This document shows positions 1-60,299 of a stretch of DNA of 64,000 nucleotides, one piece after another. Origin of the DNA: a virus; the IMG/VR virus record IMGVR_UViG_3300008108_000036; one strand, 5' to 3'. A program made the position numbers and the translations under genes. Positions within the stretch are counted from its first letter, which is position 1, and every line of letters starts with the position of its first letter. The notes beneath the pieces are model-generated. The model ran no database searches, was not told the DNA's origin, and was given only the letters and a program-made list of their open reading frames with translations.

Positions 1-516
1 TATCTTGCTATAAATGTTGTAAATGAAGCAGCAAGATTTCAAGAAAAAATAGACGAAAATCCTCAACAATATTTTCCTTGTACTATGTATAATTTTTTCT
101 GGTTATATTTAAAGGAAATTCCTGAAACCATTTTATCAAAACTGAATTTACATTCTGATACTTTAAAATGGGTTGCGGAGCTTTATGAAATTTATGTAAT
201 TAAAGACATGACGCACGAAAGTGCTGAAGCAACTATTATAAATGAAGCTGTATGTTTAATTATTAAATCTCCATTTAATCGAAAAAAGCAAACGATTATT
301 TCTCTAAAAGACGACGTCGAAGTTATTGCTGGTAAATTAGAAGACTGTTTTGCACAATTTATTCAATTTGTATTTACTGATAAACGTATAATTCAAAAAC
401 TAGAAAAAGAAGAATCACTTAATACTTGGGTAGGGAGAGGTTTTGCTTGGAGAAAAGAACGAGTAAAGTATGATAAGATGAGTAAAAAACTTCCTGAATT
501 AGAAGAAATATTTTAG
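1..516 (+). CDS. hypothetical protein, LPELxGxF C-terminal-motif family (5' truncated)
   Basis: Frame is open from base 1; ends AWRKERVKYDKMSKKLPELEEIF. Confidence 0.8.
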   Translation, partial: YLAINVVNEAARFQEKIDENPQQYFPCTMYNFFWLYLKEIPETILSKLNLHSDTLKWVAELYEIYVIKDMTHESAEATIINEAVCLIIKSPFNRKKQTIISLKDDVEVIAGKLEDCFAQFIQFVFTDKRIIQKLEKEESLNTWVGRGFAWRKERVKYDKMSKKLPELEEIF

Positions 517-1068
517 ATGAAAACAAGAGATCAAAAGCTTTTAGAAGAAGCTTACCTTAAAGTCAAACGAAGAAAGTCTCCAGAGAGTATATATGATTAT
601 AATGTTGTAGTTGATTATATCGAAAATGGATGCAAAGGAGATTTAATAATAAACGGAAGTTATCTTACAAAACTCCCAGAAGAACTTCATTCCGTAGAAG
701 GAGATTTTCACATGATGAGTTCAAGCATTAAATATCTTCCTAAAAATTTGAAATACGTTGGAGGAGCTCTTTTTCTCATGGAAAGTCCTATACAATTTCT
801 TCCTGATGATCTTACTGTTGGAAAAGATCTTAGCTTGTTTAAATGTGAAAAAATTAAAATCCTTCCTAAAAACCTAAAAGTAGGAAAAGATTTGATATTG
901 CAAGACAGTTCAATTACTTCTCTAAATCAATTTTCTCCAGGAATTGAAGTTGAAGGCGACGTTTACTCTTATGATTTTACTTCAGAAGAAGCAAAAGCCC
1001 ACATAAAAGAATTGAATAAAATAAGTAAAATGGAACAACATTTACCGGAATTAAAGGGAATATTTTAA
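517..1068 (+). CDS. LRR-like repeat protein (VGGxLxL repeats), LPELxGxF family
   Basis: Repeats such as LPKNLKYVGGALFL and LPDDLTVGKDLSL; starts MKTRDQKLLEEAY; ends HLPELKGIF. Confidence 0.8.
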   Translation: MKTRDQKLLEEAYLKVKRRKSPESIYDYNVVVDYIENGCKGDLIINGSYLTKLPEELHSVEGDFHMMSSSIKYLPKNLKYVGGALFLMESPIQFLPDDLTVGKDLSLFKCEKIKILPKNLKVGKDLILQDSSITSLNQFSPGIEVEGDVYSYDFTSEEAKAHIKELNKISKMEQHLPELKGIF

Positions 1069-1071
1069 ATA

Positions 1072-1485
1072 ATGAAAAAATACAACTCGGTCAAAAATCA
1101 CTTCTTATCGATTGAACCAGTTGCTGCACATGTAAAAATATGCAATAAAATCTTTCCCATTAAAGTTTGGCAGCTTTTTGATCACGATGTTGCTGCTTTT
1201 GCAAAAGTTGAGGAATTCAAATCTTTAGAAGAATTTGAATCAAAAATGGGTTCCGTCAAAAACTGGCAACCTGTAGTATTAATAACAAAACTTCAATTAG
1301 ACAAGTTTTATAAGGATAGTTCAACTTACTCAACAGATCAACATCATTTCTATATTGTTGAGCCGACTTCCGAATTTAAGAGTCTTGATGACACAAAAAA
1401 GCCTGAGGTGTATAATGATTATTTAATTCAAGATGAATATGCAGCATTAAAAGATAAATTACCTGAACTAAAAGGTATATTTTAA
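1072..1485 (+). CDS. hypothetical protein, LPELxGxF family
   Basis: Ends LKDKLPELKGIF. Confidence 0.8.
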   Translation: MKKYNSVKNHFLSIEPVAAHVKICNKIFPIKVWQLFDHDVAAFAKVEEFKSLEEFESKMGSVKNWQPVVLITKLQLDKFYKDSSTYSTDQHHFYIVEPTSEFKSLDDTKKPEVYNDYLIQDEYAALKDKLPELKGIF

Positions 1486-1528
1486 GAAACTGATCGCTCT
1501 TTGCTATAACTTTCTAATAAATACAAAA

Positions 1529-2128
1529 GTGAGAAACAAAGATTGTAAAACGTTAGAATTATTGTACGAGGATATTACAAATCAGTATGTTTTATTGGAT
1601 GAGGAAAAGCAATTTATTGAGCAATTAGCTACCAATATTACAAGCAACATATATAAAAACATATCTCCTCATACTCGTTTTTACGGAACAGAGCGTCTCG
1701 ATAATATAGTCCATTCGAAATTTACAAATGATATAAATTTTGGTTCAGCATTCACTAATATAACTCAAGAACAAAGACGCGCAATTGCTTTTGTGTTTGA
1801 ACAATCAATTTTAATTGTGTTATACTGCTATTTGGTTGCAATAGAAGGGCGAGATCGACCGGAAAGTGTTTGCTTTAAAACAGTTGATCAATGGATGGAC
1901 AGAGTTCATGATAAAGAAATAAAAGTACCTTACGAAAATAAAAAAGAAGTATTTGAAATGATGAAAAAAACTATTATAAACTTGTTGTTTTTTGTCTATA
2001 ATAGTTACGCCGATCCAAACGGAATGTATCATAACGAAACGGTAAGGATATGGTATGAATGGAGAAAAGAAAAAATTAGATACAAAAAACTTGTAAATAA
2101 GTTACCCGAATTAGAAGGTGTATTTTAA
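1529..2128 (+). CDS. hypothetical protein, LPELxGxF family
   Basis: GTG start 5 nt after TAAATA; starts NKDCKTLELLYE; ends WYEWRKEKIRYKKLVNKLPELEGVF. Confidence 0.8.
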   Translation: MRNKDCKTLELLYEDITNQYVLLDEEKQFIEQLATNITSNIYKNISPHTRFYGTERLDNIVHSKFTNDINFGSAFTNITQEQRRAIAFVFEQSILIVLYCYLVAIEGRDRPESVCFKTVDQWMDRVHDKEIKVPYENKKEVFEMMKKTIINLLFFVYNSYADPNGMYHNETVRIWYEWRKEKIRYKKLVNKLPELEGVF

Positions 2129-2191
2129 GCTATGCGAACGTCTTCGAGCAATTAGAGTATTTATAAAAAGTAATAATTACTATTGTATAAC

Positions 2192-2812
2192 ATGATCAAA
2201 TTATATATAAACGATCAAAAAACGTTAGAACTTCTTTATGAGCAGGTTTCTAATAATTTGATAAATGTCTTGCTTCCTGAAGAAGAGAGATTTGTTAATC
2301 TTGTTGCGGAGAAATATACTAAAGAAGTCTTTATTGCAGTAAAACGAATGGAAATTACAACGTCTGGATTTTTTTTAGATCAAATTTTTTTTACTAATCC
2401 TATAAAATATGATTTAGACGTGTTAAAAGTCGAGGACATCAAATTAAAAGAGGATGTTCGTGAAACAATCGACGATTTAATTTTAAAGCAAATAAACTCA
2501 AAGCTAATTTATTTGCACAAAACAAAACGAGGGCCGTTTATAGTTTTTAAAGACATTGAAATCTTGAGTGATTTGCACACTAAAGAAAATTCAAGCTTTT
2601 TAATAATCAAAGAAAACGAACAACTAATAACAACCTATGTTGAGCGGTTATTGAGACAGCTTATAATATATTTTTATAATATTTTAATAACATCTAGCAA
2701 GTCGGTACCACATTCTCTCGAAAATTTAAATTGGGTTAAGTGGCGGACAAAAAAGCTTAAACTTAAAAACCTCAGACAAAAACTTCCGGAATTAGAAGGA
2801 GTGTTTTCGTGA
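2192..2812 (+). CDS. hypothetical protein, LPELxGxF family
   Basis: Probable ATG at 2192; NDQKTLELLYEQV near N-terminus; ends QKLPELEGVFS. Confidence 0.8.
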   Translation: MIKLYINDQKTLELLYEQVSNNLINVLLPEEERFVNLVAEKYTKEVFIAVKRMEITTSGFFLDQIFFTNPIKYDLDVLKVEDIKLKEDVRETIDDLILKQINSKLIYLHKTKRGPFIVFKDIEILSDLHTKENSSFLIIKENEQLITTYVERLLRQLIIYFYNILITSSKSVPHSLENLNWVKWRTKKLKLKNLRQKLPELEGVFS

Positions 2813-3159
2813 AAGATCAAATATTAATTGCAGAAGTCTATTATCATGTTTTAGAAGAAAGAGCTAAAAAAACGTATAATGAATTATTAGCTCTTTTTAA
2901 AGAGCTTACCAATAACGAAAATCCTCAACCAGGAGACGAATATATATATGAATATAATAATTCGATTTATAAAATTGTTAAAACAAAAGACGGATTTCAA
3001 TGGGGAAATTGGTGGCAAGGTCAACTATGGGGTAGGTTTATAACTCAGCACTCTACGAGTGACGTAAGGGATAATGAAAAGCTGATAGAGTTTCTTAAAG
3101 CAACAAAAGTCAGGGAATTGGAAAAAAAGCTTCCTGAAATTGAAGGATTTTTTAGATGA
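2809..3159 (+). CDS. hypothetical protein, LPELxGxF family
   Basis: GTGA overlap with previous gene; starts MKDQILIAEVY; ends KKLPEIEGFFR. Confidence 0.75.
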   Translation: MKDQILIAEVYYHVLEERAKKTYNELLALFKELTNNENPQPGDEYIYEYNNSIYKIVKTKDGFQWGNWWQGQLWGRFITQHSTSDVRDNEKLIEFLKATKVRELEKKLPEIEGFFR

Positions 3160-3737
3160 AAACTAATGATCAAAAAAGCTTAGAACGACTTTACGAGCAA
3201 GTTACTAATAATGATTTTATGCTACTTAAAGAGGAAGACGTGTTGTTTGATGCAATAAGTTCTTTAATCACTAAAGAAGTTCAAAAAGTATTGAGAACCG
3301 TTGGAGATCTTAACGGTTATAGTCATTCCAGCTTGGGACAAATAGTACACAGTTTAAGTAATACTATTAATGCTAAAGACTTTGTCTGTAAGTATTTTCC
3401 TTCAGAAATTAAAGAACAAGCTGCTTTCGTTTATTTTGCGGGTATAATTTATTATATTGTAAGAAATAAAGTATTTCTTAAAAGATATTACGAACCGGAA
3501 GACATGTTGTGCTTCGAATTTGAAACTTCTGGTAGAGTCACAAATGTCAAGAGAAGAGTCGACGTTAAAGACAAAGAAAAGTTTAAACAATCTCTTAAGG
3601 AATGGTTTGTCAATCAATTAGAATTTATGTATGCGAGTTTTGCTCATGAATATCCAGAATGGGATAAATGGAGAGAAAATGAATTAAAATACGAGAAACT
3701 AAAGCAGAAGCATTCAGAACTAAAAGGAATTTTTTAA
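3156..3737 (+). CDS. hypothetical protein, LPELxGxF family
   Basis: ATGA overlap; starts MKTNDQKSLERLYEQV; ends WDKWRENELKYEKLKQKHSELKGIF. Confidence 0.8.
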   Translation: MKTNDQKSLERLYEQVTNNDFMLLKEEDVLFDAISSLITKEVQKVLRTVGDLNGYSHSSLGQIVHSLSNTINAKDFVCKYFPSEIKEQAAFVYFAGIIYYIVRNKVFLKRYYEPEDMLCFEFETSGRVTNVKRRVDVKDKEKFKQSLKEWFVNQLEFMYASFAHEYPEWDKWRENELKYEKLKQKHSELKGIF

Positions 3738-17968: not shown

Positions 17969-19465
17969 TTAAAAAATTCCATCAAGTTCTGGAAGTTTTT
18001 CTCTTAATCCTCTAAACTGAATTTCTTCATCAATTTGTTCTTGAGTATATCCTTCGATGGTATATTTTGATGCTTTAGGCAAACCAGACAACGACTTTGG
18101 TTTTTTATGAACGTACAATTGTCCTAATATTGTTGTATTGCTACATTCGAATGAATCTAATTCAAACTTAACAATGACTTTATTTAAATTATCAGGAAGC
18201 CCTTTTAACGTTTTAAGTGTTGCTCCACAACTTTCGTTAAGAAATAAAGTAATATTAGAAGGACACCCATCTAATGTCTCTAATCGCAATAACCTTGAGT
18301 TGTCGGTAAGCATACTGTTGTATGTGCCAATTTCTAGTTCTTTTAAGTCGTGAAAAGTCTCTAGTCCTTTTAGGCTTTTAATTAATGGAGCTTTATATAA
18401 TTCTATCCTATCGACTTTTGTATTATTATCTGTTGAAAGAGATACAAGTTGATCTCCTTGAATATGAATTTTAGGAACAGATAATGGACAATTATTTAAA
18501 TTTGTTGCAACAGCATCATTGAACGAAAACACATAAGATTTTAGATGATACTCTCTAATTAAACTTCTGTCTTCGGGTTTGATAAAATTTAAGCTGTCAA
18601 AATCAATTGAGTTAGTTAAAACTTTTCGCTCTCCATCGGTTTTTAATTCGCCGCATATTTCAAGTAAGTCTTTTGCTGTGAGTTTGTCTAACGACAAAAG
18701 TTTATTAAAATTTTCAAATTTAGGTTTTATATTTACTTTTTCTGATTCTTTTTGTATTTTAGCATATGAGGCTTGAGTTAATTTAAAAAGTTTATTTACA
18801 AGAGCTAATGGCTTCTGTTCGATATTTAAATCTTGTTTATTATTTAGAAAAAATTTTAAACTAGGAAAAATTATTTGATATGGTGAGTAATCTTTAGTTA
18901 GTAGTTTTTTTGTTAAAGGATCGTTGTAACGTATAATAGAAAATTGATTAAATCCTTGTTTTTTTAAATTTGTATTACAATGGCTTTCAAAGGATACTTC
19001 TGAGTCAGTTCTAACAGCTAGCACTGTTATGATTTGAGGTTTATATTCCGCTGTCTTAAAACTAATTGGAGTTTCTAGCCATTTGAAATTGAAAGGCTCT
19101 TTTGTATAAATATCTTTAAGCGTTTTTTCAAGTTTGGGAAGCGTTTTATATTCTGTTGAAAATGCGGTAGACTTAAGCCTTAAATCATCAATCGAATCTT
19201 CTATGTTAACGTTATTTCGATATTTTAATGCAATTTCTTTCGTTTTATATGGTCCTCTTAAATACTTCTTTTTTGTTACGAATAATGTACCGTTTTCAAA
19301 TTCAATTAAATAGTCTCCAGCTCCGTAATATTTAGATCTGTAGCCAACAACTTGACCCAATTGCCCTCCATAGCTTCCATATCCCTTTATAATCCAATCC
19401 CCAATAGCAAATTTCGAATTCTTTGGAATTGGTGACGCGTAAAAATTTTTATTTAAGACTCTCAC
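17969..19465 (-). CDS. large protein with KOW/SH3-like N-terminus, LRR-like C-terminal half and LPELxGxF tail
   Basis: FAIGDWI..GQLGQVVGY; SLKGLE, TLDGCP, TLKGLP repeats; ends LREKLPELDGIF; TAAATA at 19475-19480. Confidence 0.75.
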   Translation of the reverse strand: MRVLNKNFYASPIPKNSKFAIGDWIIKGYGSYGGQLGQVVGYRSKYYGAGDYLIEFENGTLFVTKKKYLRGPYKTKEIALKYRNNVNIEDSIDDLRLKSTAFSTEYKTLPKLEKTLKDIYTKEPFNFKWLETPISFKTAEYKPQIITVLAVRTDSEVSFESHCNTNLKKQGFNQFSIIRYNDPLTKKLLTKDYSPYQIIFPSLKFFLNNKQDLNIEQKPLALVNKLFKLTQASYAKIQKESEKVNIKPKFENFNKLLSLDKLTAKDLLEICGELKTDGERKVLTNSIDFDSLNFIKPEDRSLIREYHLKSYVFSFNDAVATNLNNCPLSVPKIHIQGDQLVSLSTDNNTKVDRIELYKAPLIKSLKGLETFHDLKELEIGTYNSMLTDNSRLLRLETLDGCPSNITLFLNESCGATLKTLKGLPDNLNKVIVKFELDSFECSNTTILGQLYVHKKPKSLSGLPKASKYTIEGYTQEQIDEEIQFRGLREKLPELDGIF

Positions 19466-24249: not shown

Positions 24250-25338
24250 CTAGTTGGTAAGCTGCTCTTTTATAAGTTTGATCCATTGCAGACTGGTTAG
24301 AGGCTTGTTGTCTAATAGAGTAAAAGCATAAGAAGAGTTTGAAGAAAAATTTCTTTTTATCATTTCAGCCTGCTCTTTTCTCGTTTTAACATTTCTAATA
24401 TCGTGTACTACGCTCATCACTTTGCTTATGTATTCTTTTGCTAAAATTCCAGCATCAACTATTTTATGTATTTGGTCAGTCAATTGAACAGCAATTTCAA
24501 AATCAAAGTTCGTTTTAATTTTTTCGAAAAATTCTTCAAAATCAGGCAATTCAGATTCAATATAATAATCAATTAAATTATCTTCAGAGTTTAATTGAGA
24601 TTTGACTCGATGGCAAAACAGATACCAATCAGATTTTAATTTTATTCTGTTTTGATTGTTATTATAACAAACAACTACCCCTTCTTGCCCCTTCCAATGC
24701 TTTATCGCATTTGCTAAATCTGCAATTGTTTTAAGCTCTTCGATTTGAAAGGTTTTTGGAGTTGGCATGCAGCCGATTTGTCTCCAAATATCCAATACAT
24801 TTTGTTGACAAACTATTTGCATACAACTTTTATTAATTGCTCCAAGAAAATAAAATTCAACCTCTTTTGGTCGTATTACAATGACGTTGTTTGGAGTTAC
24901 TATTTCAAACAACAAAGTTAAATGAGAATTGTTTTTTAAAAATTCTACAACTTTTGGGTATTTTGTACACAATAAAGTGAAGTCCTGTGAATTGTCTTGC
25001 TGGAGATAATTAAAACAGCCTCTCGTTCTCATAGAGAATTGACCATTTACGTGATCCACGATTAACAACGAACCGTCTAACTTTTCTTGTATTGACCAAT
25101 CTTTAAACTCTTCTGGATTAGGATACAATGAGGAAGCTTCGCCTAAATTAAAAAATTTTGGCCAACCGCAAGAAAGTACTTGTTGGGTTTCTCTACCAAC
25201 TATTAAAGAACGGTAAAATAAGTTATTCGAATTCCATTCAGCACTAATTTTGGGTGTAATTAAGTATGAATCTATACCGCAAAAAACTCCTTCGTTTATA
25301 TAAAACTGTTCGTTTTCGGTTGGCAACTTAACTTTCAT
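24250..25338 (-). CDS. RNA ligase, T4 Rnl1-like
   Basis: PKFFNLGE, EKLDGS (motif I), LFEI, EGVVV, KLKSDWY. Confidence 0.85.
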   Translation of the reverse strand: MKVKLPTENEQFYINEGVFCGIDSYLITPKISAEWNSNNLFYRSLIVGRETQQVLSCGWPKFFNLGEASSLYPNPEEFKDWSIQEKLDGSLLIVDHVNGQFSMRTRGCFNYLQQDNSQDFTLLCTKYPKVVEFLKNNSHLTLLFEIVTPNNVIVIRPKEVEFYFLGAINKSCMQIVCQQNVLDIWRQIGCMPTPKTFQIEELKTIADLANAIKHWKGQEGVVVCYNNNQNRIKLKSDWYLFCHRVKSQLNSEDNLIDYYIESELPDFEEFFEKIKTNFDFEIAVQLTDQIHKIVDAGILAKEYISKVMSVVHDIRNVKTRKEQAEMIKRNFSSNSSYAFTLLDNKPLTSLQWIKLIKEQLTN

Positions 25339-40929: not shown

Positions 40930-43437
40930 ATGTCTCAAAATTTTACTCCACGTGCTCAGCAAGCCTTAGCTTTAGCAAGAAAAGAAGCTGAAAATTTAAA
41001 TCACACTTACATAGGAACAGAACACTTGTTGCTAGGATTTTTAAAACTAGGTCAAGGATTAGCATTAAAAGTATTACAAGAGTTAGGAGTAACTATAGAA
41101 ATTGTTTACGAGATAATTAAAAATAATTCTTCTGAAAATAATAACTCGCTACTAAATTCTAAAAAAGAGAATATCCCGATTACACCTAGAGTTAAGAAGG
41201 TTTTACATTTAGCGGAAAAAGAGTCTAAAAAAATGGGCCATACATATGTTGGAACGGAACATTTATTGCTAGGATTATTGAAAGAAACTGAGGGAGCTGC
41301 TGCAACAATTCTACAGCAAGAGTTTAATATTAATTACGAAAAAGCAAAAGAGCAAATACTAAAAGAGATCGATCCGAACTATCAAAGCAATGAACCTGTA
41401 CTAGCTGGTCAAGAAAATTTTCAAAAATCAAGCTCATCAAAAAAATCTACAGCACTTAAAACATACGGAAAAGATCTAACAGAATTAGCAAAAAACGGAA
41501 AGCTCGATCCTGTTATAGGTAGAGTAAATGAAATCGAAAGGACTATTCAAATTCTTTGCAGAAGAACAAAAAATAATCCAGTTTTAATAGGAGAAGCTGG
41601 TGTTGGCAAAACAGCTATTGCTGAAGGATTAGCACAAAAAATTATATCAAATAATGTTCCTGAGTTACTGTTAAATAAACAAGTTATTACATTAGATTTA
41701 GCTTTATTGGTTGCAGGAACTATGTATAGAGGTCAATTTGAAGAAAGATTGAAAACTGTAATGAATGAAGTAAAGAAAAACGGAAATGTTATTTTGTTTA
41801 TAGACGAGCTACATACAATCGTAGGAGCAGGATCCGCTTCAGGGTCAATGGACGTTTCTAATATTTTTAAGCCTGCTTTAAGTAGAGGTGAACTTCAAAT
41901 CATTGGAGCAACTACGTTAAATGAATATAGAAAGTATATAGAAAAAGATACTGCGCTGGAAAGAAGGTTCCAGCAAGTTAAAATTGAGGCTCCGAGCGTC
42001 AATGACGCTATTCAGATTTTAAAAGGAATCAAACATAAGTACGAAGAGCATCATAAAGTTATATATACAGACGAGGCACTAGAATCAGCATCACTGTTGT
42101 CGGATAGATATATTTCTGATAGATTTTTGCCAGATAAAGCAATCGATTTAATCGATGAAGCAGGATCTAGAGCAAGAATTAACTCCACAATAAAGCCCCA
42201 AGATTTTACTACCTTAGAAAATTCTATTACAGAATTAAAAGCTAAAAAACAAGAAGCAATTAAAAATCAGGAGTTTGAAAAGGCCGCAGCTACGAGAGAT
42301 CAAGAGCGTAGAGCTACTGAATCGTTAGCTGAAGCTCTAAACAAATGGAAGAAAACTAACAAAGAAAATATCGTTACGGTGAATAAAGAGGATATTATAA
42401 CTGTATTATCTAAATGGACAGGAATCCCTTTGTCGAGAATCGATGAAAAGGAAGCAGAAAAATTATTACAGTTAGAACAAACTCTAGAAAAGCGAATTAT
42501 CGGTCAAGAGGAAGCAATAAAAGCTGTGAGTACAGCAATTCGTAGAGCTAGAGCGGATTTAAAAGATCCAAAACGTCCTATAGGCACTTTTTTATTTTTA
42601 GGTCCTACAGGAGTCGGTAAAACATTTTTAGCAAAAAATATTGCTGAATTAATTTTTGGCAATAAAGATTCGCTTATTCAAATTGATATGAGCGAATATA
42701 TGGAAAAATTTTCAGTTTCCAGATTAATAGGATCTCCTCCTGGTTATATCGGTCATGAAGAAGGAGGACAATTAACAGAGAAAGTCAGAAAAAATCCTTA
42801 TTCTGTAGTTCTATTTGATGAAATAGAAAAAGCTCATCCTGATGCTCTACATTTGTTATTGCAAATATTCGAAGAAGGAATTGTTACGGATTCGCTTGGT
42901 AGAAAAATAGATTTTAAAAATACAATTGTAATTCTCACTTCAAATGTTGGAGCTACCTTTGCTTCAAAACAAACTAACTTGGGATTTGGAGTAAAAAATG
43001 AACCAAACACGAATTATGAGACAATGAAAGAAAAAACTATGAGCGAAGTTAGGTCTTTTTTTAAGCCAGAACTTTTAAATCGAATGGATAGCATTGTTGT
43101 TTTTAAATCTTTAACTACAGAAAACATTAAATTAATAGTTCAATTAGAGGCTTTGTGTTTAATTAATCGATTAAAAGAAAACAAACAAATTACGTTAATT
43201 CTTGATGAGTTAGCTGTAGAATTTATTGCAGAAAAGGGTTCTAAAAACGAATATGGCGCTCGTCCGATTAGAAGAGCGATTGAAACTTATTTGGAAAATG
43301 CAATAGCCGAAAAAATCTTAAGCGGTGCTATAAAGAACAAAGAAACAGTAATTGCGACCGTATCGGCTGACAATAAAAATAATATAACTCTATTAAAAAA
43401 TCAAAATAAAAAACAACGTAAAAAGAATTATTTTTAA
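40930..43437 (+). CDS. clpC: ATP-dependent Clp protease ATP-binding subunit ClpC
   Basis: Two Clp-N repeats (GTEHLLLG), Walker A GEAGVGKT and GPTGVGKT, UVR-like QEFEKAA, LGF ClpP-docking loop, GARP. Confidence 0.95.
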   Translation: MSQNFTPRAQQALALARKEAENLNHTYIGTEHLLLGFLKLGQGLALKVLQELGVTIEIVYEIIKNNSSENNNSLLNSKKENIPITPRVKKVLHLAEKESKKMGHTYVGTEHLLLGLLKETEGAAATILQQEFNINYEKAKEQILKEIDPNYQSNEPVLAGQENFQKSSSSKKSTALKTYGKDLTELAKNGKLDPVIGRVNEIERTIQILCRRTKNNPVLIGEAGVGKTAIAEGLAQKIISNNVPELLLNKQVITLDLALLVAGTMYRGQFEERLKTVMNEVKKNGNVILFIDELHTIVGAGSASGSMDVSNIFKPALSRGELQIIGATTLNEYRKYIEKDTALERRFQQVKIEAPSVNDAIQILKGIKHKYEEHHKVIYTDEALESASLLSDRYISDRFLPDKAIDLIDEAGSRARINSTIKPQDFTTLENSITELKAKKQEAIKNQEFEKAAATRDQERRATESLAEALNKWKKTNKENIVTVNKEDIITVLSKWTGIPLSRIDEKEAEKLLQLEQTLEKRIIGQEEAIKAVSTAIRRARADLKDPKRPIGTFLFLGPTGVGKTFLAKNIAELIFGNKDSLIQIDMSEYMEKFSVSRLIGSPPGYIGHEEGGQLTEKVRKNPYSVVLFDEIEKAHPDALHLLLQIFEEGIVTDSLGRKIDFKNTIVILTSNVGATFASKQTNLGFGVKNEPNTNYETMKEKTMSEVRSFFKPELLNRMDSIVVFKSLTTENIKLIVQLEALCLINRLKENKQITLILDELAVEFIAEKGSKNEYGARPIRRAIETYLENAIAEKILSGAIKNKETVIATVSADNKNNITLLKNQNKKQRKKNYF

Positions 43438-46191: not shown

Positions 46192-47382
46192 ATGAAGCAA
46201 AATCTACAAATAGCTGTCTCTTTTGATGAAACATATATAGATCAATTTCTAACTGTTGTAAATAACATTTACACGTTACACAAACAATACACAAATCCGT
46301 CACGCTGCAGCAATGATTTATTAAATATAACAGATACGCTAGAATTTTTTGTTTGCTATGATGGCAATTTATCTAATTTGCCTGCCATACAAAGCTATAT
46401 TACGTCTATTTTTCCAACGATAATTTTTAATTATAAACATGTTCCGACTGAATGCAAGGAAATTTATAAATTTTTGGTTGAAAACTATCCGTTCAGTAGA
46501 TCGAGAAATACTCTGCAAACCTGTTCTGTGTATTATAGACTATTTTTGGATACAATTTGGCCTACACTAGATGGATTAGTGTTACAGATTGATTTAGATT
46601 TAGTTTTTAAGCAACCGGTAAAATCTTTGTTTCAACTAGTATACGACATGAGCAAAACAACTAAGCATAGCTTATATGCGTGCGAATGGCCTGCCATTCA
46701 GTGCTGGGATTTTAAACTTTCAACGTTAGGACCTAACGAACAACAAGAATGGATACCAATTAGAGGAAAAACTATTCTTCAATATTATGTGGATAAGTGG
46801 TTTAAATGGTTTATCGAATGCTCTCGTACATTAAATACGCCTATTAATTACTTAGACTATTGTACTGATTTAAGCACAAAAAACGCAATACATTTTAATG
46901 CTGGAGTATTAATGTTTGATCTTACCGAATATAGACGAAATAATATCCAGCAAATTTGTAAAGATTGTGTCGTTATTCAGAAAAAATTTCATACTTTTTT
47001 TCATAACGATCAAGGACTTTTAAATTTTGTGTTTTTTAACAAAGTTGGAATAATACCAAAATCGTGGAACTTGACTGATTACGGTTGTGGTTATTATTAT
47101 CTTCTTCATCCGACTCCCGAAATTCAAAAAGAGTTTAAAGAAGCTAACATAATACATTTTAATGGGCAGTATAAACCTTGGCAACATACAGATAACATTC
47201 CTTTACATGCTTTAGAATTGTGGAAAACGTACGAACTAAGCTGTTTGAAAAATATCATACTAACTAAAGTTGCGGAAATTCCTAAACATTATAACGTAAA
47301 TTCAAATTTTAAAGAGCAGCTAATTTCAAATTTAACAAAAGTCCAAAAAAATCTTACACAAAATGACAAAATCCCCAATTAA
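46192..47382 (+). CDS. glycosyltransferase family 8
   Basis: YYRLF, IDLD, FNAGVL, DQGLLN, IIHFNGQYKPW. Confidence 0.9.
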   Translation: MKQNLQIAVSFDETYIDQFLTVVNNIYTLHKQYTNPSRCSNDLLNITDTLEFFVCYDGNLSNLPAIQSYITSIFPTIIFNYKHVPTECKEIYKFLVENYPFSRSRNTLQTCSVYYRLFLDTIWPTLDGLVLQIDLDLVFKQPVKSLFQLVYDMSKTTKHSLYACEWPAIQCWDFKLSTLGPNEQQEWIPIRGKTILQYYVDKWFKWFIECSRTLNTPINYLDYCTDLSTKNAIHFNAGVLMFDLTEYRRNNIQQICKDCVVIQKKFHTFFHNDQGLLNFVFFNKVGIIPKSWNLTDYGCGYYYLLHPTPEIQKEFKEANIIHFNGQYKPWQHTDNIPLHALELWKTYELSCLKNIILTKVAEIPKHYNVNSNFKEQLISNLTKVQKNLTQNDKIPN

Positions 47383-48790
47383 CTTTTTATTTATTATTGC
47401 TGAAGATGTAGGAATAGGGGATTATTCATGTTACAATAATTACAGTAAAATTAAAACAAAAAACGTAGAAGATTTAGCAAACGGTGGAGTAATTTTTACA
47501 AACGCTCATTCGACAGCAGCATTGTGTGCTCCTGCTAGATATTCGCTTCTGACCGGCAATTATCCTAATAGACAAAGATTAGGCAATAAAGGAGAGTGGG
47601 GATTTGATGTCTCATCTTCTATTACTCCTAATCAAAAAACGTTAGCGAATATTTTGCAACAAAATGGTTATCGAACTGGTCTTTTTGGCAAGACGGGAAT
47701 AGGAGGATTATACAACAAGACAGAAACAGGAGAAATAGACTGGACAGCTCCAATGGTAGATGGTCCATCTAATTGGGGATTTGATTATTCGTTTATCATA
47801 CCTCGTGGTCATCAATGGCTTCCTTTAATCTTTTTGGAAAATAATATTCCAACTTGCGACCCTAAAACCTTAATCAGAGGTCAGCAAGCAATAGAATTTG
47901 CTAGACAAAAAAAATGTGTTGGTGGAGGCAATGAACAGCATTTTTTAAATTGGCTTGATTATGTTGATCCTAATTTTGAATTATCAAAAATTGGAGAGAC
48001 TCTCTTAACTAAAGTAGAAAAATTTTTAGATACAACCGATATGGCAAAACCGTTTTTTATGCATTTTTGTTGTGATGGAGCACATTCTCCTCACGACCCC
48101 CCTCAAACGATAAGAGGGAACGAGATATTAAATACGTGTATTAATAGACGAGACGACATGGTTTATGAAACAGATGTGCTTTTAGGAGAATTACGTAAAA
48201 TTTTAAAAACGAGAGGTCTTGAAGAAAACACAGTCATATGCTTCAGTTCGGATCACGGAGCTGTCAGTGGCGATAAAGGAAATATGCATTTAAGAGACGG
48301 GAAAAGCACAATCTACGAGGGAGGAGTGAGAGTTCCTTTGATTGTTAATTATCCTTCTAAATTTTTGCAAGGAAAAGTGTGTGAAGATTTAGTTTGTGCT
48401 ATGGATATTTTACCAACCTTTTTAGATCTTATTGAAGTACAGATTAACGAAGATGAAATGCTGGATGCGAAAAGTCTAATTCCTCTTCTTACAACAAATT
48501 CGCTTGAGCCTAACAGAAAGCATTTATTAATCAATCATGCTCACTGTTGTATAAACGAAACGAAAAACGAATGGGGAGGAGCAAGCTCGATTTATTACTT
48601 AAACTGGAAATTAATATTTGCTGGGGATGTACTGGTAGGTAACCATCCAATTGCATTATATGATTTAGAAGCAGATTCTTCTGAAACAACAAATTTGATA
48701 GACCAAGACCATTTAAAACAAACAATAGAGGAGTTGACTAGCTTAAGAACTCTTTTAAATTATAGTGTAAACACAAGAGTAACCCCTTAA
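47363..48790 (+). CDS. arylsulfatase (formylglycine-dependent)
   Basis: AEDVGIGD, CAPARYSLLTG (CxPxR), GYRTGLFGK, SDHG, YEGGVRVP. Confidence 0.9.
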   Translation: MTKSPINFLFIIAEDVGIGDYSCYNNYSKIKTKNVEDLANGGVIFTNAHSTAALCAPARYSLLTGNYPNRQRLGNKGEWGFDVSSSITPNQKTLANILQQNGYRTGLFGKTGIGGLYNKTETGEIDWTAPMVDGPSNWGFDYSFIIPRGHQWLPLIFLENNIPTCDPKTLIRGQQAIEFARQKKCVGGGNEQHFLNWLDYVDPNFELSKIGETLLTKVEKFLDTTDMAKPFFMHFCCDGAHSPHDPPQTIRGNEILNTCINRRDDMVYETDVLLGELRKILKTRGLEENTVICFSSDHGAVSGDKGNMHLRDGKSTIYEGGVRVPLIVNYPSKFLQGKVCEDLVCAMDILPTFLDLIEVQINEDEMLDAKSLIPLLTTNSLEPNRKHLLINHAHCCINETKNEWGGASSIYYLNWKLIFAGDVLVGNHPIALYDLEADSSETTNLIDQDHLKQTIEELTSLRTLLNYSVNTRVTP

Positions 48791-48797
48791 GTTATCT

Positions 48798-49988
48798 TTA
48801 TGTGAGTGGTTGCAATAATTCATTTGTTAACGTTTGCATTTTTGGTGCAATATGATGAAAAAATTTTTTGTAACCAGAGCATAAATAATTTAAACCGTAC
48901 TCTCCGCCAGGTGCTCTTAAAAAACGATGCTTGGGACATTCACCATGACAGGCAAATCTAACATCACAGCGTTTACAATAATTTGGTAAGGTGTCCCGCT
49001 TGTCGTTTCCAAATTTTTTTTGCCGTTCTGAGCTAATCATATCTCCTAAAGATGATGATGTTATACTTCCTAATTTATATGACGGGTAAACATAATGATC
49101 GCACGAATAAACTGTGCCATCATGCTCTAAAGCAATTGCTTTACCGCACGTTTCACTAAATACACACAAACTATTCGGCTGCAGTCCAGACCAATTACCT
49201 AAAGTTACATCAAAAATTTGAACAAACACTTTACCTTTGTCTTTTTTATACCATTCATCGAAAACCGTTATTAAAAATTCTCCATACTGAGTAGGTTTAA
49301 CGCTCCACTCGGTAACGGGCAAATTTTTCTCGTCGTTTATTGTTGGTGGAAAAGCTAGATCAAAACTTAATTGATTAGTTTTAACATCAGGTAGCCGTTC
49401 AACTAAAGGAATGAATTGTATAAAGTTTGAGCCAATTTTTTTTAAAAAATTATAAACTTCTAGTGGTTTTTTTGAATTAATATTATTAACAACAGTTATA
49501 GTGTTAAATTCAATTTCATGCTTTTGCAATACACGTAGTCCTTTTATTACTTTTTCGTATGTTGGAAGTCCTTTTTTATCTACTCTGTATGCATCGTGTA
49601 GTTTCGGAGGACCATCTATACTGAGACCGACTAAAAAATTATGTTGCTTTAAAAAATTTCCCCAGTCATCGTTTAATAGAGTACCGTTAGTTTGAATGCT
49701 GTTTGAAACAATTTTCCCTTTGGCGTATTGTTGTTGCATTTCAATAATTTTTTCAAAGTATTTAATTCCCAGCATTGTAGGCTCTCCACCTTGCCAGGTA
49801 AAAATAACTTCTTTAGTTGGCTGAGAATCTATATACTGTTTTATATATTCTTCTAAAAGTTCTTCTTTCATTTTAAACGTTTCGTTTTTCGGAAACATTT
49901 TTTCTTTTTCTAGATAAAAGCAATATTTACATCCTATATTACACAAAGGGCCTATAGGCTTAGCCATTACATGGAATAGTTCTTTCAT
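48798..49988 (-). CDS. anaerobic sulfatase-maturating radical SAM enzyme (anSME/AslB/ChuR)
   Basis: CNIGCKYC, WQGGEP, SIDGP, SPASM cysteines (YSCDHYV, CHGECPKHR). Confidence 0.95.
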   Translation of the reverse strand: MKELFHVMAKPIGPLCNIGCKYCFYLEKEKMFPKNETFKMKEELLEEYIKQYIDSQPTKEVIFTWQGGEPTMLGIKYFEKIIEMQQQYAKGKIVSNSIQTNGTLLNDDWGNFLKQHNFLVGLSIDGPPKLHDAYRVDKKGLPTYEKVIKGLRVLQKHEIEFNTITVVNNINSKKPLEVYNFLKKIGSNFIQFIPLVERLPDVKTNQLSFDLAFPPTINDEKNLPVTEWSVKPTQYGEFLITVFDEWYKKDKGKVFVQIFDVTLGNWSGLQPNSLCVFSETCGKAIALEHDGTVYSCDHYVYPSYKLGSITSSSLGDMISSERQKKFGNDKRDTLPNYCKRCDVRFACHGECPKHRFLRAPGGEYGLNYLCSGYKKFFHHIAPKMQTLTNELLQPLT

Positions 49989-54051: not shown

Positions 54052-55056
54052 TTAATTATCTTTATAATTTCTGCTAAGGATTTTAAAGCCTAAAGGCCTT
54101 CTAGAAGAAAATGATTTCGGATATGCAGTAGGCCGTACTACAATACCTTCAGCAACTTCTCCAGATGAATATTTTTGCTGATCAGCTAATTCTCCAAGTT
54201 TTTCTAAAGCGATTTGTAAGTCGCATCCTACAAAAGAGCATTCTGCTACAAAAGGTGCTACATTACACTTTAGCTCGATATTGCAAAATCCTTTCATTTC
54301 TTGGTAGTTCATATATTCTCCAGAGCTTTTTTTTATTTGAAAAACAAAAACTTCATGATCTTCTAATTTAAGTGTATTTTTTTGAATTCCTGGACCTACA
54401 AGCTCTCCTTGAATTACTCCGGTAAATCCCTCCAAATAATTTAGCTTTTGAGCAGCTTTCCAAAAAATACTGTCTTCGGTATTTTTTTTAGATAAATTTC
54501 GAGAACACACTTCTGAAATTTGTCCGTTTTCTACTATTATAGTAATAGAACTACCATCAAGCTTTTGTGTAATTGTAACTGAAGAATGTTTAATTACTTC
54601 TTCTACTAAATCTAAATTCGACAGTCCGTTGTCTTCGTCTGTTTTTGTTGCTAGATGAGTCGGAAAATCCCCAACGTTTTCTCCTGACAGATTAGCAGGA
54701 ATTTCTTTTATGTACTTTTTAATTCCTAGGTATTCTGTTACATCTGCTCCGATTTCAAGTAATTGTAAGTCTGGAAACAGCGACAGCGGAAGAACTACTC
54801 CAGCTGAGTGTTCTCCTCTAAGCTTAATCATCTTTAATCTAATTTGTTTTTCGGGATTTTTTCTATCAATCAGAAATTCGGACCACGCTGTTTTTGGAAG
54901 GATTGTGTCGATCATAATAAAAACAATTTTATCTCCTTCTTTGTGTAAATTAGCTTGTACGACAGATTGCCACCCCATTACCTGAGCCAATTCTAGTTTA
55001 TCAGCATTTGGATGCTTCTTTAAGCTTTTAATGGTTTCTATTGATGCTAATTTCAT
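54052..55056 (-). CDS. RNA ligase, DRB0094/Rnl2-like with N-terminal OB domain
   Basis: HPNADKLE, KLRG..S.G, KTDE, QKLDGSS, QGELVGPGIQ, EGIVVR, FKILS. Confidence 0.9.
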   Translation of the reverse strand: MKLASIETIKSLKKHPNADKLELAQVMGWQSVVQANLHKEGDKIVFIMIDTILPKTAWSEFLIDRKNPEKQIRLKMIKLRGEHSAGVVLPLSLFPDLQLLEIGADVTEYLGIKKYIKEIPANLSGENVGDFPTHLATKTDEDNGLSNLDLVEEVIKHSSVTITQKLDGSSITIIVENGQISEVCSRNLSKKNTEDSIFWKAAQKLNYLEGFTGVIQGELVGPGIQKNTLKLEDHEVFVFQIKKSSGEYMNYQEMKGFCNIELKCNVAPFVAECSFVGCDLQIALEKLGELADQQKYSSGEVAEGIVVRPTAYPKSFSSRRPLGFKILSRNYKDN

Positions 55057-58094: not shown

Positions 58095-58135
58095 AATAAA
58101 GTATTTAATCAAACCTTTGTAATTTTATACGAGGG

Positions 58136-58207
58136 AGCCGGGTATCGGGGTCGAACCGATGACCTACGGTTTACAAAACCGTCGCACTACCACTGTGCTA
58201 ACCCGGC
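58136..58207 (-). tRNA. tRNA-Thr(UGU)
   Basis: Cloverleaf; ACGGT-TTTGTAA-ACCGT. Confidence 0.9.
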
Positions 58208-58213
58208 TTAAAA

Positions 58214-58289
58214 TGGTAGCGACGTTGGGACTCGAACCCAATTTGTGTGCTTATGAGACACACCAGACCACCTGGCCTAGCCCATCGCG
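58214..58289 (-). tRNA. atypical tRNA-Met(CAU)
   Basis: CTCATAA loop, TTCGAGT, CCA; C1:U72 mismatch, G8. Confidence 0.75.
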
Positions 58290-58300
58290 ATTAAAATTAT

Positions 58301-58438
58301 TTAGTTAGAACGGACTGGTTTACAAACGGTTTTGCAATCAGCAGGTTTACAAGAATTTTTTACGCAAGCTTTGGGAGATGTACAAGAAGAAAGAGCAATT
58401 ACAGTTGCTAGCGACAAAATAGCCATGAGTGTTTTCAT
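58301..58438 (-). CDS. small Cys-rich lipoprotein
   Basis: MKTLMAILSLATVIALSS-C lipobox. Confidence 0.65.
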   Translation of the reverse strand: MKTLMAILSLATVIALSSCTSPKACVKNSCKPADCKTVCKPVRSN

Positions 58439-58484
58439 GTTTAGTACATTAAAAGATTTTTTTAAAAAGACAACTTCAAAATGA

Positions 58485-59255
58485 TTAGAAAAATTTTGGG
58501 CAACCAGGTTCATTCAATAAGGATGAATGATTTGAGATTAAATAGTCTTTCATTTGGTCGTAGTTTAAAAAACAACTGTCGATTGGTTCGATAAATTGCT
58601 TTGCATACTGTGTGGTTAATTTATGCTCAGAAAAATCATTAATTTCTAATCTATCAAAAATGTTTTTTATCGAATTTCTACTAATAACATCTTCGTATGT
58701 TATGTTTAAATATTTATCAGGAAATTCTTTTGCTTTTCGCAAATAATACCGAGCTCCACAGATATGATCTCTCAAAAAAAGTTCAAACTCGTCAGGATCA
58801 AATACTAGTTTTCTTGCGGTCGGTTCAGTCTTAATTTGAAACCATTTTCCTGTAGCTTTAGCTCTCAACGTCGAGATGTACCTCGCAATGGGATTCCTTA
58901 ATAATATAATTTTTTGATACTTAGGTGAATCAGCTATATACTTTAATAATGTTTGATTTTGATCCCAGAATATTTTAAATCCGATAGCTTTAAATTTAGA
59001 ATTACTACTCAGCTTTACTATTTCGTTCCAATAAGCTAAAGGTTCAGCTTTGTTTCGTTCTTTCCAATTTTGATGTGTACTTCCATGCTGAATTATCCAT
59101 TCCTGATCCGAATATTCTGTATCCGGTTTGTATAATTCATAATAACATTTAATCGAAGGAATACGATCTAATATATCTACCAATAAGGATGAACCTGTTC
59201 TATGCAGAGAAAATATTGCAAATTGTTTTATATCATCTTGATGACTTGTTCCCAT
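58485..59255 (-). CDS. sulfotransferase (Stf0-like), tandem copy 1
   Basis: HRTGSS, GFKIF, LRNPIARYIS, YEDV. Confidence 0.8.
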   Translation of the reverse strand: MGTSHQDDIKQFAIFSLHRTGSSLLVDILDRIPSIKCYYELYKPDTEYSDQEWIIQHGSTHQNWKERNKAEPLAYWNEIVKLSSNSKFKAIGFKIFWDQNQTLLKYIADSPKYQKIILLRNPIARYISTLRAKATGKWFQIKTEPTARKLVFDPDEFELFLRDHICGARYYLRKAKEFPDKYLNITYEDVISRNSIKNIFDRLEINDFSEHKLTTQYAKQFIEPIDSCFLNYDQMKDYLISNHSSLLNEPGCPKFF

Positions 59256-59301
59256 TGTACGAATAATTAAATTAAGCTATTTGAAAGACAACACAAAAAA
59301 G

Positions 59302-60096: not shown

Positions 60097-60139
60097 TGTA
60101 CGAATAATTAAATTAAGCTATTTGAAAGACAACAAAAAA

Positions 60140-60212: not shown

Positions 60213-60218
60213 TTAAAA

Positions 60219-60293: not shown

Positions 60294-60299
60294 AAAAAA

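What the first reader, a model, noticed from the sequence alone, without database searches (positions are those of the whole stretch)
1..3737. Array of dissimilar proteins all ending in a conserved K-L-P-E-L-x-G-[IV]-F tail: candidate sorting or docking tag system
Seen: seven consecutive genes end KLPELEEIF, HLPELKGIF, KLPELKGIF, KLPELEGVF, KLPELEGVFS, KLPEIEGFFR and KHSELKGIF, each after a basic amphipathic stretch (in four cases WR.....[YL].K[LM]). The bodies differ: one is LRR-like, one has a W-rich core, three are helical paralogs. The codons differ synonymously (ctt/tta, cct/ccg/ccc, ggt/gga), so selection acts on the peptide, not on a DNA repeat. Inference: a portable terminal tag that routes diverse cargo to one partner. 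Candidates are capsid or portal packaging of ejected internal proteins, a sliding-clamp-type motif (T4 gp33/gp55/gp43 use a C-terminal LDFLF-like motif) or a Clp recognition signal. I do not recognise this motif as described.
Basis: partly seen in the sequence, partly recalled or inferred. Interest (0 to 1): 0.88.

Follow-up and report, generated by a model that had tools for sequence, protein, structure and literature searches.

The report
Phage cargo-module boundary peptide
A short conserved peptide (K-L-P-E-L-x-G-I-F) ends eight otherwise unrelated proteins of a T4-like phage; in related phages the same modules are strung into long polyproteins joined at this peptide plus a glutamate, so it is most likely the boundary and processing signal of proteins packed into the phage head, a signal not described before.

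Summary
Seven tandem plus-strand ORFs (1-3737) and an eighth on the minus strand (17969-19465) end in K-Φ-P-E-L-x-G-[IV]-F, against 0.000 expected by chance. Conservation is on the peptide, not the DNA. The bodies are not paralogs as a set: across relatives, 143 bodies fall into 31 unrelated clusters, and two folded members have different folds.

The main new result is that the peptide is not only a terminal tag. In related uncultured phages the same modules are fused into polyproteins of 2-7 modules, and the residue after F is Glu at 52 of 54 junctions. In the window a stop codon sits exactly there (TAA versus GAA, one base apart).

The junction [IVL]-F-E|S fits the T4 prohead-protease rule (cut after Glu in L/I-x-E). 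Polyproteins start with T4-CTS-like leaders, and the arrays sit behind late-promoter-like TAAATA boxes.

Best reading, confidence about 0.45: a boundary, processing and docking element of late, head-packaged internal proteins. Clamp binding, a Clp degron and simple paralogy are disfavoured. No protease, capsid or partner sequence of this clade could be reached, so cleavage and packaging remain inferred. First-stage notes on this same genome had already flagged the tail.

The parts
1..516 (+). W1, 5'-truncated member of the 'WR' body family; tail KLPELEEIF at 487-513, stop TAG
517..1068 (+). W2, LRR-solenoid body with N-tag MKTRDQKLLEEAY (517-555) and tail HLPELKGIF (1039-1065); same frame as W1, separated by one stop codon
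1072..1485 (+). W3, C-tail-only member (tail 1456-1482); same frame as W1 and W2
1529..2128 (+). W4, alpha/beta body with no structural match; N-tag (GTG start) and tail KLPELEGVF (2099-2125); AATAAATA box 5 nt upstream of the start
2183..2812 (+). W5, paralog of W4 and W7; tail 2780-2806 plus one Ser caused by the GTGA overlap with W6
2809..3159 (+). W6, Trp-rich small body; short N-tag (V)KDQILIAE; tail KLPEIEGFF (3127-3153) plus one Arg caused by the ATGA overlap
3156..3737 (+). W7, paralog of W4 and W5; N-tag MKTNDQKSLERLYEQV; degenerate tail KHSELKGIF (3708-3734)
17969..19465 (-). W8, 498-aa protein with an LRR-like C-terminal half by eye; tail KLPELDGIF (17972-17998); AATAAATA box 13 nt upstream; its C-terminal, tail-proximal part (residues 401-478 of the trimmed body) matches module 2 of polyprotein P0022 (blastp E 1.6e-7)

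Best explanation
The KLPELxG[IV]F 'tail' is the C-terminal boundary element of a family of cargo modules encoded by a hyperplastic late locus of a T4-like phage clade. The modules are made either as one polyprotein, with junctions ...helix-K-Φ-P-E-L-x-G-[IVL]-F-E|S..., or, as in this window, as tandem translationally coupled genes in which a stop codon replaces the junction Glu. Proposed mechanism, with the status of each step. (1) Late transcription from TAAATA-type promoters: inferred from boxes 5-13 nt upstream of starts. (2) Loading into the prohead core through N-terminal T4-CTS-like leaders, either the polyprotein leader M-x-[ST]-F-x-[KQ]-x-Y...Φ-x-E or the window's N-tag M-K-[TS]-x-D-Q-x-L8-L-E10: inferred by likeness to T4 IPI, IPII and IPIII. 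(3) The prohead protease cuts after Glu at the leader and at each [IVL]-F-E|[SN] junction and frees the modules: inferred. (4) Each module keeps an amphipathic helix plus K-Φ-P-E-L-x-G-I-F, which serves as an extended docking and recognition element for the protease or the core, so that C-only proteins are handled too: inferred, and the weakest step. (5) The modules (LRR and other unknown folds) travel in the head and are ejected with the DNA as host-directed effectors, as T4 IPI* is: by analogy only.
For: Shown here. (a) 8 tails at ORF ends against 0 expected, with peptide-level selection. (b) 143 bodies form 31 unrelated clusters, and 9 clusters hold both fused and stand-alone members; the N-tag is present or absent within one body family. 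(c) A profile search of 1.84 billion proteins returns 69 hits, 68 of them family members, 18 of which carry 2-7 internal copies. (d) After F comes Glu at 52 of 54 internal junctions and never Asp, whereas terminal copies with an extra residue carry Asp 6 times and Glu 2 times (Fisher p = 6e-7); in T4, Asp at P1 blocks processing (PMC9026906). (e) The codon after F is TAA 55, GAA 15, TAG 3, GAG 2 of 83. (f) Polyprotein leaders (MSTFNKEYRSILE|G, MISFQKFYRVNE|S and others) resemble T4 IPI, IPII and IPIII leaders read from the T4 record, and their putative sites [IVL]-x-E|[SGNK] match the junction logo. (g) An (A/T/G)ATAAATA box lies 5-13 nt upstream of array starts, polyprotein starts and N-tag gene starts; it precedes 8-23% of genes against about 0.6% expected, and the two annotatable box genes are a tail tube and a tail-collar fibre. 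(h) T4 kinship of the clade: gp18 at 46% identity, UvsW, family-B polymerase. (i) In L020 the polyprotein is flanked by VWA and MoxR genes with 8-10-residue I-x-E leaders behind TATAAATA and AATAAATA. (j) AlphaFold2 gives confident cores with low-confidence terminal tags. From the literature: gp21 cuts after Glu in L/I-X-E; the CTS is the first 10 residues of IPIII, with residues 8 and 10 governing processing; Alt and gp21 have C-terminal propeptides (PMC9026906); T-even internal proteins are diverse and share only a CTS (PMC3012670).
Against: No prohead protease, scaffold, capsid or portal gene of this clade was found in any sequence I could reach, so the enzyme and the receptor are assumed rather than seen. 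Conservation reaches far beyond a protease site (P16 to P1'), and it persists in split genes that need no cleavage, so cleavage alone cannot explain it. The bodies are not depleted in [LI]-x-E (z = +3.8, control +2.2). Body pI is about 6, unlike the basic T4 internal proteins. Position 2 of the tail can be H, F or V, so the inner 'LPE' is not a reliable gp21-type site. The window's N-tag lacks the aromatic residues at positions 4 and 7 that govern targeting in T4. The late-promoter reading rests on a motif and two annotated genes. There is no expression or proteomic evidence.
Confidence: 0.45

Rival explanations
1. The element is a short linear docking motif for one conserved hub protein, of the phage or the host, unrelated to the capsid. 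Polyproteins would be multivalent, uncleaved scaffolds, and the split genes would deliver the same modules to the same hub individually.
For: Strict conservation of K, P, E, L, G and F over about 16 residues on 31 unrelated bodies is typical of a binding motif. It persists in split genes where no cleavage is needed. The tags are low-confidence appendages on folded cores.
Against: It does not explain why the next residue is Glu at 52 of 54 internal junctions yet relaxed, often to Asp, at termini. It does not explain the CTS-like leaders with Φ-x-E sites on the polyproteins or the late-promoter boxes. No candidate hub was identified.
Confidence: 0.22
2. The element is a sliding-clamp (T4 gp45 or PIP-like) binding motif that tethers diverse proteins to the clamp.
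For: L-P-E-L-x-G-I-F can be written x-x-x-L-x-x-[IV]-F, loosely like the PIP pattern Q-x-x-L-x-x-F-F, and it is usually C-terminal.
Against: The DNA polymerase of the syntenic relative G002 ends QTDLFELFGDN, a canonical clamp motif that differs from the tail. All tagged genes of G002 sit in one locus of unknown genes and none is a replication or transcription protein. Internal copies followed by Glu-Ser and a conserved Pro and Gly are not expected of clamp motifs. No clamp gene of the clade was available to test.
Confidence: 0.04
3. The element is a C-terminal degron or adaptor signal for the phage-encoded ClpC-like ATPase (40930-43437) or for host Clp proteases.
For: The window encodes a ClpC-like AAA+ protein that is conserved at 73% identity in G002. 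The tail ends in hydrophobic residues.
Against: Eighteen family proteins carry the element internally, where it cannot act as a free C-terminal degron. Tagging some 20 late gene products for destruction has no evident logic. The ending does not resemble LAA-type tags.
Confidence: 0.03
4. It is ordinary paralogy: one gene family duplicated in tandem, whose ends happen to be the best conserved parts.
For: W4, W5 and W7 (and the C-terminal half of W1) are true full-length paralogs (blastp 1e-19 to 1e-12).
Against: With the termini trimmed, 143 bodies fall into 31 clusters with no detectable similarity. W2 is an LRR solenoid and W4 a mixed alpha/beta fold. The N-tag comes and goes within a body family.
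Confidence: 0.03

Closest known systems
T4 internal proteins (IPI, IPII, IPIII, Alt) with capsid targeting sequences cut by prohead protease gp21
   Same: The phage is T4-like. There is a variable locus of unrelated small proteins that share only short terminal peptides. The N-terminal leaders are about 10 residues with Φ at 8 and Glu at 10 (window N-tag), or M-x-T-F-x-K-x-Y...Φ-x-E (polyprotein leaders), compared with T4 MKTYQEFIAE|A and MKTFKEF...ITE|A. Putative cuts follow Glu. T4 Alt and gp21 also have C-terminal propeptides (PMC9026906).
   Different: T4 internal proteins have no shared C-terminal element and are never polyproteins. Here a 16-residue C-terminal element is the most conserved feature, and modules are fused into chains of up to 7. 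The bodies are not basic. Packaging and cleavage are not shown here.
Ejection and inner-body proteins of giant phages (phiKZ, 201phi2-1, SPN3US) processed by a gp21-like prohead protease
   Same: Many diverse head-internal proteins are matured by cuts after Glu at a short motif (S/A-X-E in phiKZ; PMC9026906).
   Different: Those are separate proteins with N-terminal propeptides. No conserved junction peptide or multi-module polyprotein is described there. No homology to them was found.
Viral polyproteins cut at conserved junctions by Glu-specific proteases
   Same: Modules lie in one ORF and are separated by a conserved junction with Glu at P1 and a small P1' residue (Ser or Asn).
   Different: That strategy is known (my own knowledge) from RNA viruses of eukaryotes. 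Here it is a dsDNA tailed phage, the cargo is accessory rather than replicative, and the same junctions are interchangeably stop codons.
Encapsulin cargo-loading peptides and C-terminal capsid-binding helices of scaffolding proteins (P22, herpesvirus)
   Same: The concept is shared: a short C-terminal peptide or helix on diverse cargo docks to the inside of an HK97-fold shell (my own knowledge).
   Different: There is no sequence likeness, no shell protein of this clade could be tested, and here the element also occurs internally.

Membership tests
T4-type CTS / internal-protein system | The phage belongs to the T4 group | tested here: met
   The syntenic relative G002 encodes gp18 sheath (46% identity, E 2e-44), UvsW (E 3e-51), a tail tube (phrog_45) and a family-B polymerase with a T4-type clamp tail.
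T4-type CTS / internal-protein system | Short N-terminal leader ending in a (L/I)-x-E site, about 10 residues long | tested here: met
   Window N-tag M-K-T-R-D-Q-K-L8-L-E10. Polyprotein leaders end ILE|G, ISE|S, VNE|S, LQE|S. T4 leaders were read from the T4 record for comparison. The aromatic residues at positions 4 and 7 are present in the polyprotein leaders but absent from the window N-tag.
T4-type CTS / internal-protein system | Unrelated bodies that share only the signal, in a variable locus | tested here: met
   31 body clusters. All tagged genes of G002 lie in one locus.
T4-type CTS / internal-protein system | A gp21-type (S77) prohead protease in the same genome | not testable with these tools
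   The head module is absent from every stretch reachable: Pfam PF03420 and PF07068 and tblastn with T4 gp20-24 found nothing in the window, G001, G002 or the fetched loci. These are genome fragments, so absence is not shown.
T4-type CTS / internal-protein system | The proteins are present in virions and are cleaved | not testable with these tools
   This needs proteomics of particles.
T4-type CTS / internal-protein system | Late expression | tested here: inconclusive
   TAAATA boxes lie 5-13 nt upstream of starts. They are enriched about 15-fold or more over chance and are shared with tail tube and tail-fibre genes. No transcript data were used.
Protease-processed polyprotein | Conserved junction with a fixed P1 residue between independently folding modules | tested here: met
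   Glu follows F at 52 of 54 junctions, with Ser or Asn at P1' in 39 of 54. The modules also occur as stand-alone genes.
Protease-processed polyprotein | Actual cleavage at the junctions | not testable with these tools
   Only indirect evidence: Asp never occurs at internal junctions but is the commonest extra residue at termini (p = 6e-7).
Sliding-clamp binding motif (T4 gp45 / PIP-like) | The same motif at the C-terminus of the phage's own clamp clients, such as the DNA polymerase | tested here: not met
   The G002 polymerase ends QTDLFELFGDN.
C-terminal Clp degron (ssrA-like) | Acts only as a free C-terminal end | tested here: not met
   54 internal copies occur in 18 proteins.
Sortase LPXTG sorting signal | LPXTG followed by a hydrophobic span and a basic tail | tested here: not met
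   The motif is LPELxG with no Thr, and the protein ends 2-3 residues later with no hydrophobic span.
Leucine-rich repeat proteins (body of W2 only) | LRR solenoid fold | tested here: met
   AlphaFold2 pLDDT 88. Best BFVD matches are 'Leucine-rich repeat' proteins of uncultured Caudovirales (E 3e-5, TM 0.63), with weaker PDB LRR hits.

The most novel reading that the evidence does not exclude
T4-like phages of this clade package a large, fast-evolving arsenal of effector modules into the head as polyproteins. The prohead protease cuts them at a dedicated about 16-residue helix-KΦPELxGIF-E|S junction that doubles as a C-terminal capsid-targeting or docking signal. Evolution toggles each junction between 'cleave' (GAA) and 'stop' (TAA). 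This would be the first polyprotein strategy, and the first C-terminal cargo-loading peptide, described for a tailed phage head.
Probability: 0.3. Interest if true: 0.85.

Novelty: new variant of a known kind. Interest (0 to 1): 0.68.

Why it matters
If the reading holds, it extends the T4 internal-protein paradigm in two ways. Cargo would be made as multi-module polyproteins, and a conserved C-terminal junction peptide would accompany the N-terminal CTS. That would explain how a phage can carry some 20 or more unrelated, rapidly exchanged proteins into the host with its DNA; these are likely anti-defence or takeover factors, and all of them are currently without a known family. It would also give a simple sequence handle (the tail profile) for finding injected phage effectors in metagenomes. 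It would offer a second, C-terminal tag and a defined cleavage linker for loading foreign proteins into T4-type capsids, which are already used as delivery and vaccine platforms (PMC3012670, PMC9026906). Even if packaging is wrong, a 16-residue motif shared by 31 unrelated protein families and interchangeable with a stop codon is an unusual, well-defined object for experiment.

Tried and rejected
1. Pfam and PHROGs scans of the 8 window members and Pfam of 10 polyproteins gave no credible family.
2. tblastn of W8 and of polyprotein P0021 against 50,697 phage records gave no match, so no cultured relative carries the modules.
3. A literature search for the peptide strings found 0 papers.
4. Complex prediction with three copies of W2, testing tail-tail or N-tag-tail self-assembly, returned no verdict (score 0.00). 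It counts neither for nor against binding.
5. A test for depletion of [LI]-x-E sites in the bodies found none (z = +3.8; control proteins +2.2). It is uninformative, because gp21-type enzymes cut only exposed sites.
6. Structural search for the W4 body found no match above Z 5 in PDB and nothing in BFVD.
7. The search for the clade's head module failed: Pfam Gp23 and Peptidase_S77 on G001 and G002, tblastn with T4 gp19-24 on all fetched DNA, and two contig walks.
8. The window's own contig is not in IMG/VR and no whole genome is held.
9. A suppressor tRNA that would read the stops as Glu was considered. None of the 16 tRNAs in the window has a stop anticodon, and the Glu codons in the polyproteins are real GAA/GAG under table 11.
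10. A 2A-like ribosome-skipping peptide was considered and dropped. There is no likeness to the 2A consensus, and the element persists where a stop codon already separates the genes.
11. Most single hits of the degenerate DNA pattern in metagenomes (about 100 of 134) are unrelated mid-protein occurrences and were discarded.


Full report
OBSERVATION. A six-frame scan finds an eighth copy on the minus strand, 17969-19465, a 498-aa protein ending KLPELDGIF. All eight occurrences in the window lie at ORF ends. Shuffling the 91 window proteins gives 0.000 such ends and 0.006 occurrences anywhere per proteome. The genes are tightly coupled: W1, W2 and W3 are in one frame and separated by single stop codons, and W5/W6 and W6/W7 overlap as GTGA and ATGA, which explains the extra Ser and Arg after Phe.

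Across 30 copies from this and related phages, all four Pro codons and four Leu codons are used. Within the window, identity is 0.94 at second codon positions but 0.55 at third.

An alignment of the last 32 residues shows that the conserved element is longer than nine residues: Φ-x-x-[LM]-x-x-K-Φ-P-E-L-x-G-[IV]-F. Its hydrophobic positions are spaced 3-4-3-3, which gives one amphipathic face. Five of the seven genes also share an N-terminal tag, MK[TS]xDQxLLE..Y, which this finding did not mention.

ARE THE BODIES RELATED? W4, W5 and W7 are full-length paralogs (blastp 1e-19 to 1e-12, and still 1e-11 to 1e-7 with the tail removed), and W1 joins them through its C-terminal half. W2, W3, W6 and W8 share only the termini. 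AlphaFold2 gives an LRR-type solenoid for W2 (pLDDT 88) and a mixed alpha/beta fold for W4 (pLDDT 83). In both models the N-tag helix and the last roughly ten residues have low confidence, as expected of flexible appendages. W2 matches 'leucine-rich repeat' proteins of uncultured tailed phages (TM 0.63; weaker PDB LRR hits). W4 matches nothing.

WHAT GENOME IS THIS? No family library names any member. The window holds 16 tRNA genes, a ClpC-like ATPase, many glycosyltransferases, a sulfatase with a radical-SAM partner, and RNA ligases. No whole genome is held. A back-translated tail pattern found two IMG/VR contigs, which I fetched in full as G001 (56.7 kb) and G002 (124.5 kb). G002 is syntenic with window 31-56 kb, including ClpC at 73% identity. 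It encodes a T4 gp18 sheath homolog (46% identity, E 2e-44), UvsW (E 3e-51), a tail tube and a family-B DNA polymerase. The clade is therefore T4-like by my own tests, in agreement with unchecked first-stage notes on this genome.

DISTRIBUTION AND MODULARITY. The W4 family has only eight clusters among 5.8 billion proteins, all from metagenomes. Their contigs carry arrays in which every gene ends in the tail; in L005, ten genes in a row do so. Variants such as KIPELNGIF, KVPELKGIF, KFPELKGVF and KLPELEDIL define the core as K-Φ-P-E-L-x-x-[IV]-[FL]. In G002 all tagged genes lie in one locus at the contig end. The longer metagenome copy of that contig shows that the locus continues as a second, divergently transcribed array. 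Proteins carry the N-tag only, the C-tail only, or both, and within one body family the N-tag can be present or absent.

THE KEY RESULT. I searched a profile of the 32-residue element against 1.84 billion representative proteins. It returned 69 proteins. One, P0059, is an unrelated acidic repeat protein. Of the other 68, 18 are long proteins with 2 to 7 copies of the element inside them. These are chains of the same kinds of modules. Trimming the termini and clustering 143 bodies gives 31 unrelated clusters, and nine of those clusters contain both fused and stand-alone members, including the W8 family.

At 54 internal junctions the residue after Phe is Glu 52 times, and the next residue is Ser 31 times and Asn 8 times. 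At 47 of 59 terminal copies the stop codon follows Phe directly. At the DNA level the codon after Phe is TAA 55, GAA 15, TAG 3 and GAG 2 of 83, so the fused and split states differ by one G/T change. Both states coexist in one phage: in L020 a five-module polyprotein is followed directly by two coupled tail-only genes, with N+C, N-only and C-only genes nearby.

The element is therefore a module boundary, and not only a terminal tag. A capped scan of metagenome contigs with the DNA pattern gave about 27 family-like copies in 13 loci. About 100 further matches were unrelated mid-protein occurrences followed by arbitrary residues, which shows that 'stop or Glu after Phe' is specific to this family.

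MECHANISM. According to a review of T4 head assembly (PMC9026906):
- The prohead protease gp21 cuts after Glu in the short motif L/I-X-E.
- The capsid targeting sequence (CTS) is the first ten residues of IPIII, with residues 4 and 7 governing targeting and residues 8 and 10 governing processing.
- Asp at position 10 blocks processing but not targeting.
- Alt, and probably gp21 itself, also loses a C-terminal propeptide.

A second review states that T-even internal proteins are a highly diverse set sharing only the CTS (PMC3012670). I read the T4 leaders from the T4 record: IPII and IPIII are MKTYQEFIAE|A, IPI is MKTFKEFTSTTTPVSTITE|A, and Alt is MELITE|LFDE.

Measured against this:
- The junction [IVL]-F-E|[SN] fits the cleavage rule.
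- The complete polyproteins begin with leaders such as MSTFNKEYRSILE|G, MSLFNQIYEKFKISE|S, MISFQKFYRVNE|S and MTFNKHFQKSKVFLQE|S. These share the T4 layout (aromatic near positions 4 and 7-8, then Φ-x-E), and their putative P3, P1 and P1' preferences match those of the junctions.
- The window's N-tag M-K-T-x-D-Q-x-L8-L-E10 has the T4 length and the 8/10 processing geometry, but it lacks the aromatic residues at 4 and 7.
- Asp never occurs after Phe at internal junctions, yet it is the most common extra residue at terminal copies (Fisher p = 6e-7). That is what a Glu-specific cut needed only at internal junctions would predict.

An (A/T/G)ATAAATA box lies 5-13 nt upstream of the start codons of array starts, polyproteins and N-tag genes. 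It precedes 8-23% of genes against about 0.6% expected, nearly always at 5-9 nt. The only two box-bearing genes with an annotation are a tail tube and a tail-collar fibre. This fits the T4 late promoter TATAAATA. In L020 the genes beside the polyprotein, a VWA protein (MSVYYRKIDE|A behind TATAAATA) and a MoxR ATPase (MELESITE|S behind AATAAATA), carry similar leaders.

Taken together, the most economical reading is a late locus of head-internal cargo proteins. They would be loaded through N-terminal leaders and separated by the prohead protease at the junctions. The conserved helix-KΦPELxGIF would act as an extended recognition or docking element that each module keeps. I put this at about 0.45.

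WHAT WEAKENS IT. I could not reach any prohead protease, scaffold, capsid or portal gene of the clade, so neither the enzyme nor a receptor has been seen. Conservation over 16 residues, and its persistence in split genes, means cleavage alone is not the full story. The bodies are not depleted in [LI]-x-E and are not basic. The promoter inference rests on a motif and two annotated genes.

RIVALS.
- A docking motif for a non-capsid hub remains possible (0.22), but it does not explain the Glu/Asp contrast, the leaders or the promoter boxes.
- Clamp binding is disfavoured (0.04). The G002 polymerase ends QTDLFELFGDN, the classic motif and not this one, and no replication or transcription protein carries the tail.
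- A Clp degron (0.03) cannot act from internal positions.
- Plain paralogy (0.03) is contradicted by the 31 clusters and the two folds.
- No suppressor tRNA is present, and the Glu codons are real, so recoding is not the explanation.
- The single complex-prediction job, three copies of W2, gave no verdict and is not used as evidence.

COMPARISON AND NOVELTY. The system works like the T4 CTS/internal-protein system and like the processed ejection proteins of giant phages. It differs in having a conserved C-terminal boundary element, in building polyproteins of up to seven modules, and in toggling junctions between Glu and stop. Neither the peptide nor any body has a Pfam or PHROG family, no cultured phage carries them, and no paper holds the peptide strings. 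I class it as a new variant of a known kind. First-stage notes on overlapping windows of this genome had already flagged the tail and the N-tag. One of them states that the tail is always at the extreme C-terminus, which the polyproteins contradict.

VERDICT. Interest 0.68.

Noticed in passing
window 40930-43437 (+): Phage-encoded ClpC-like AAA+ protein (Clp_N repeats, UVR motif, two AAA domains, D2-small domain), conserved at 73% identity in the syntenic relative G002. This is unusual cargo for a T4-like phage.
   Followed up: partly
window 58133-63939 (-): Array of 16 tRNA genes, including a 95-nt tRNA-Ile(tat) and a tRNA-Ser(act). None has a stop anticodon.
   Followed up: partly
window, G001, G002: upstream of 8-23% of genes: An ATAAATA box sits almost always 5-9 nt before the start codon, including before the tail-tube and tail-fibre genes. 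It looks like a T4-type late promoter, and the spacing implies nearly leaderless late mRNAs. Array genes lack Shine-Dalgarno sequences.
   Followed up: partly
L008 1399-3951 (-) = G002 polymerase: The family-B DNA polymerase of the relative ends QTDLFELFGDN, a clear PIP/T4-type clamp-binding tail.
   Followed up: yes
window 47363-49988: A sulfatase (PF00884) lies convergent with a radical-SAM/SPASM enzyme (an anSME-like maturase), among five or more glycosyltransferases at 38-47 kb. This looks like a glycan-modification island.
   Followed up: no
L086 5189-6060 (157-kb contig of the G002 phage): Two tail-gene arrays diverge from a 29-nt gap that carries TAAATA boxes on both strands, a compact bidirectional promoter-like region.
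   Followed up: partly
L003 9913-9954 (+): A 13-codon remnant ORF, MEQSLPEIEGIFR, lies in the spacer before the next array gene. It appears to be the relic tail of a lost module.
   Followed up: no
L019 1-7839 and 13091-23009: The seven-module polyprotein P0010 is flanked by very large (1000-1500 aa) Laminin_G_3 (concanavalin-like lectin) proteins, probably fibres, and by a DNA ligase.
   Followed up: no
P0022 (844 aa, metagenome protein): An N-tag-like SDQKLLEEKYE follows an internal junction after a 9-residue spacer, so the N-tag can also be internal.
   Followed up: no
window 24250-25338 (-) and 54052-55056 (-): Window 24250-25338 matches Pfam RNA_lig_T4_1. Window 54052-55056 is 68% identical to an L020 gene that carries PF09414 RNA_ligase, so it is probably a second RNA ligase; it was not scanned directly.
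   Followed up: no
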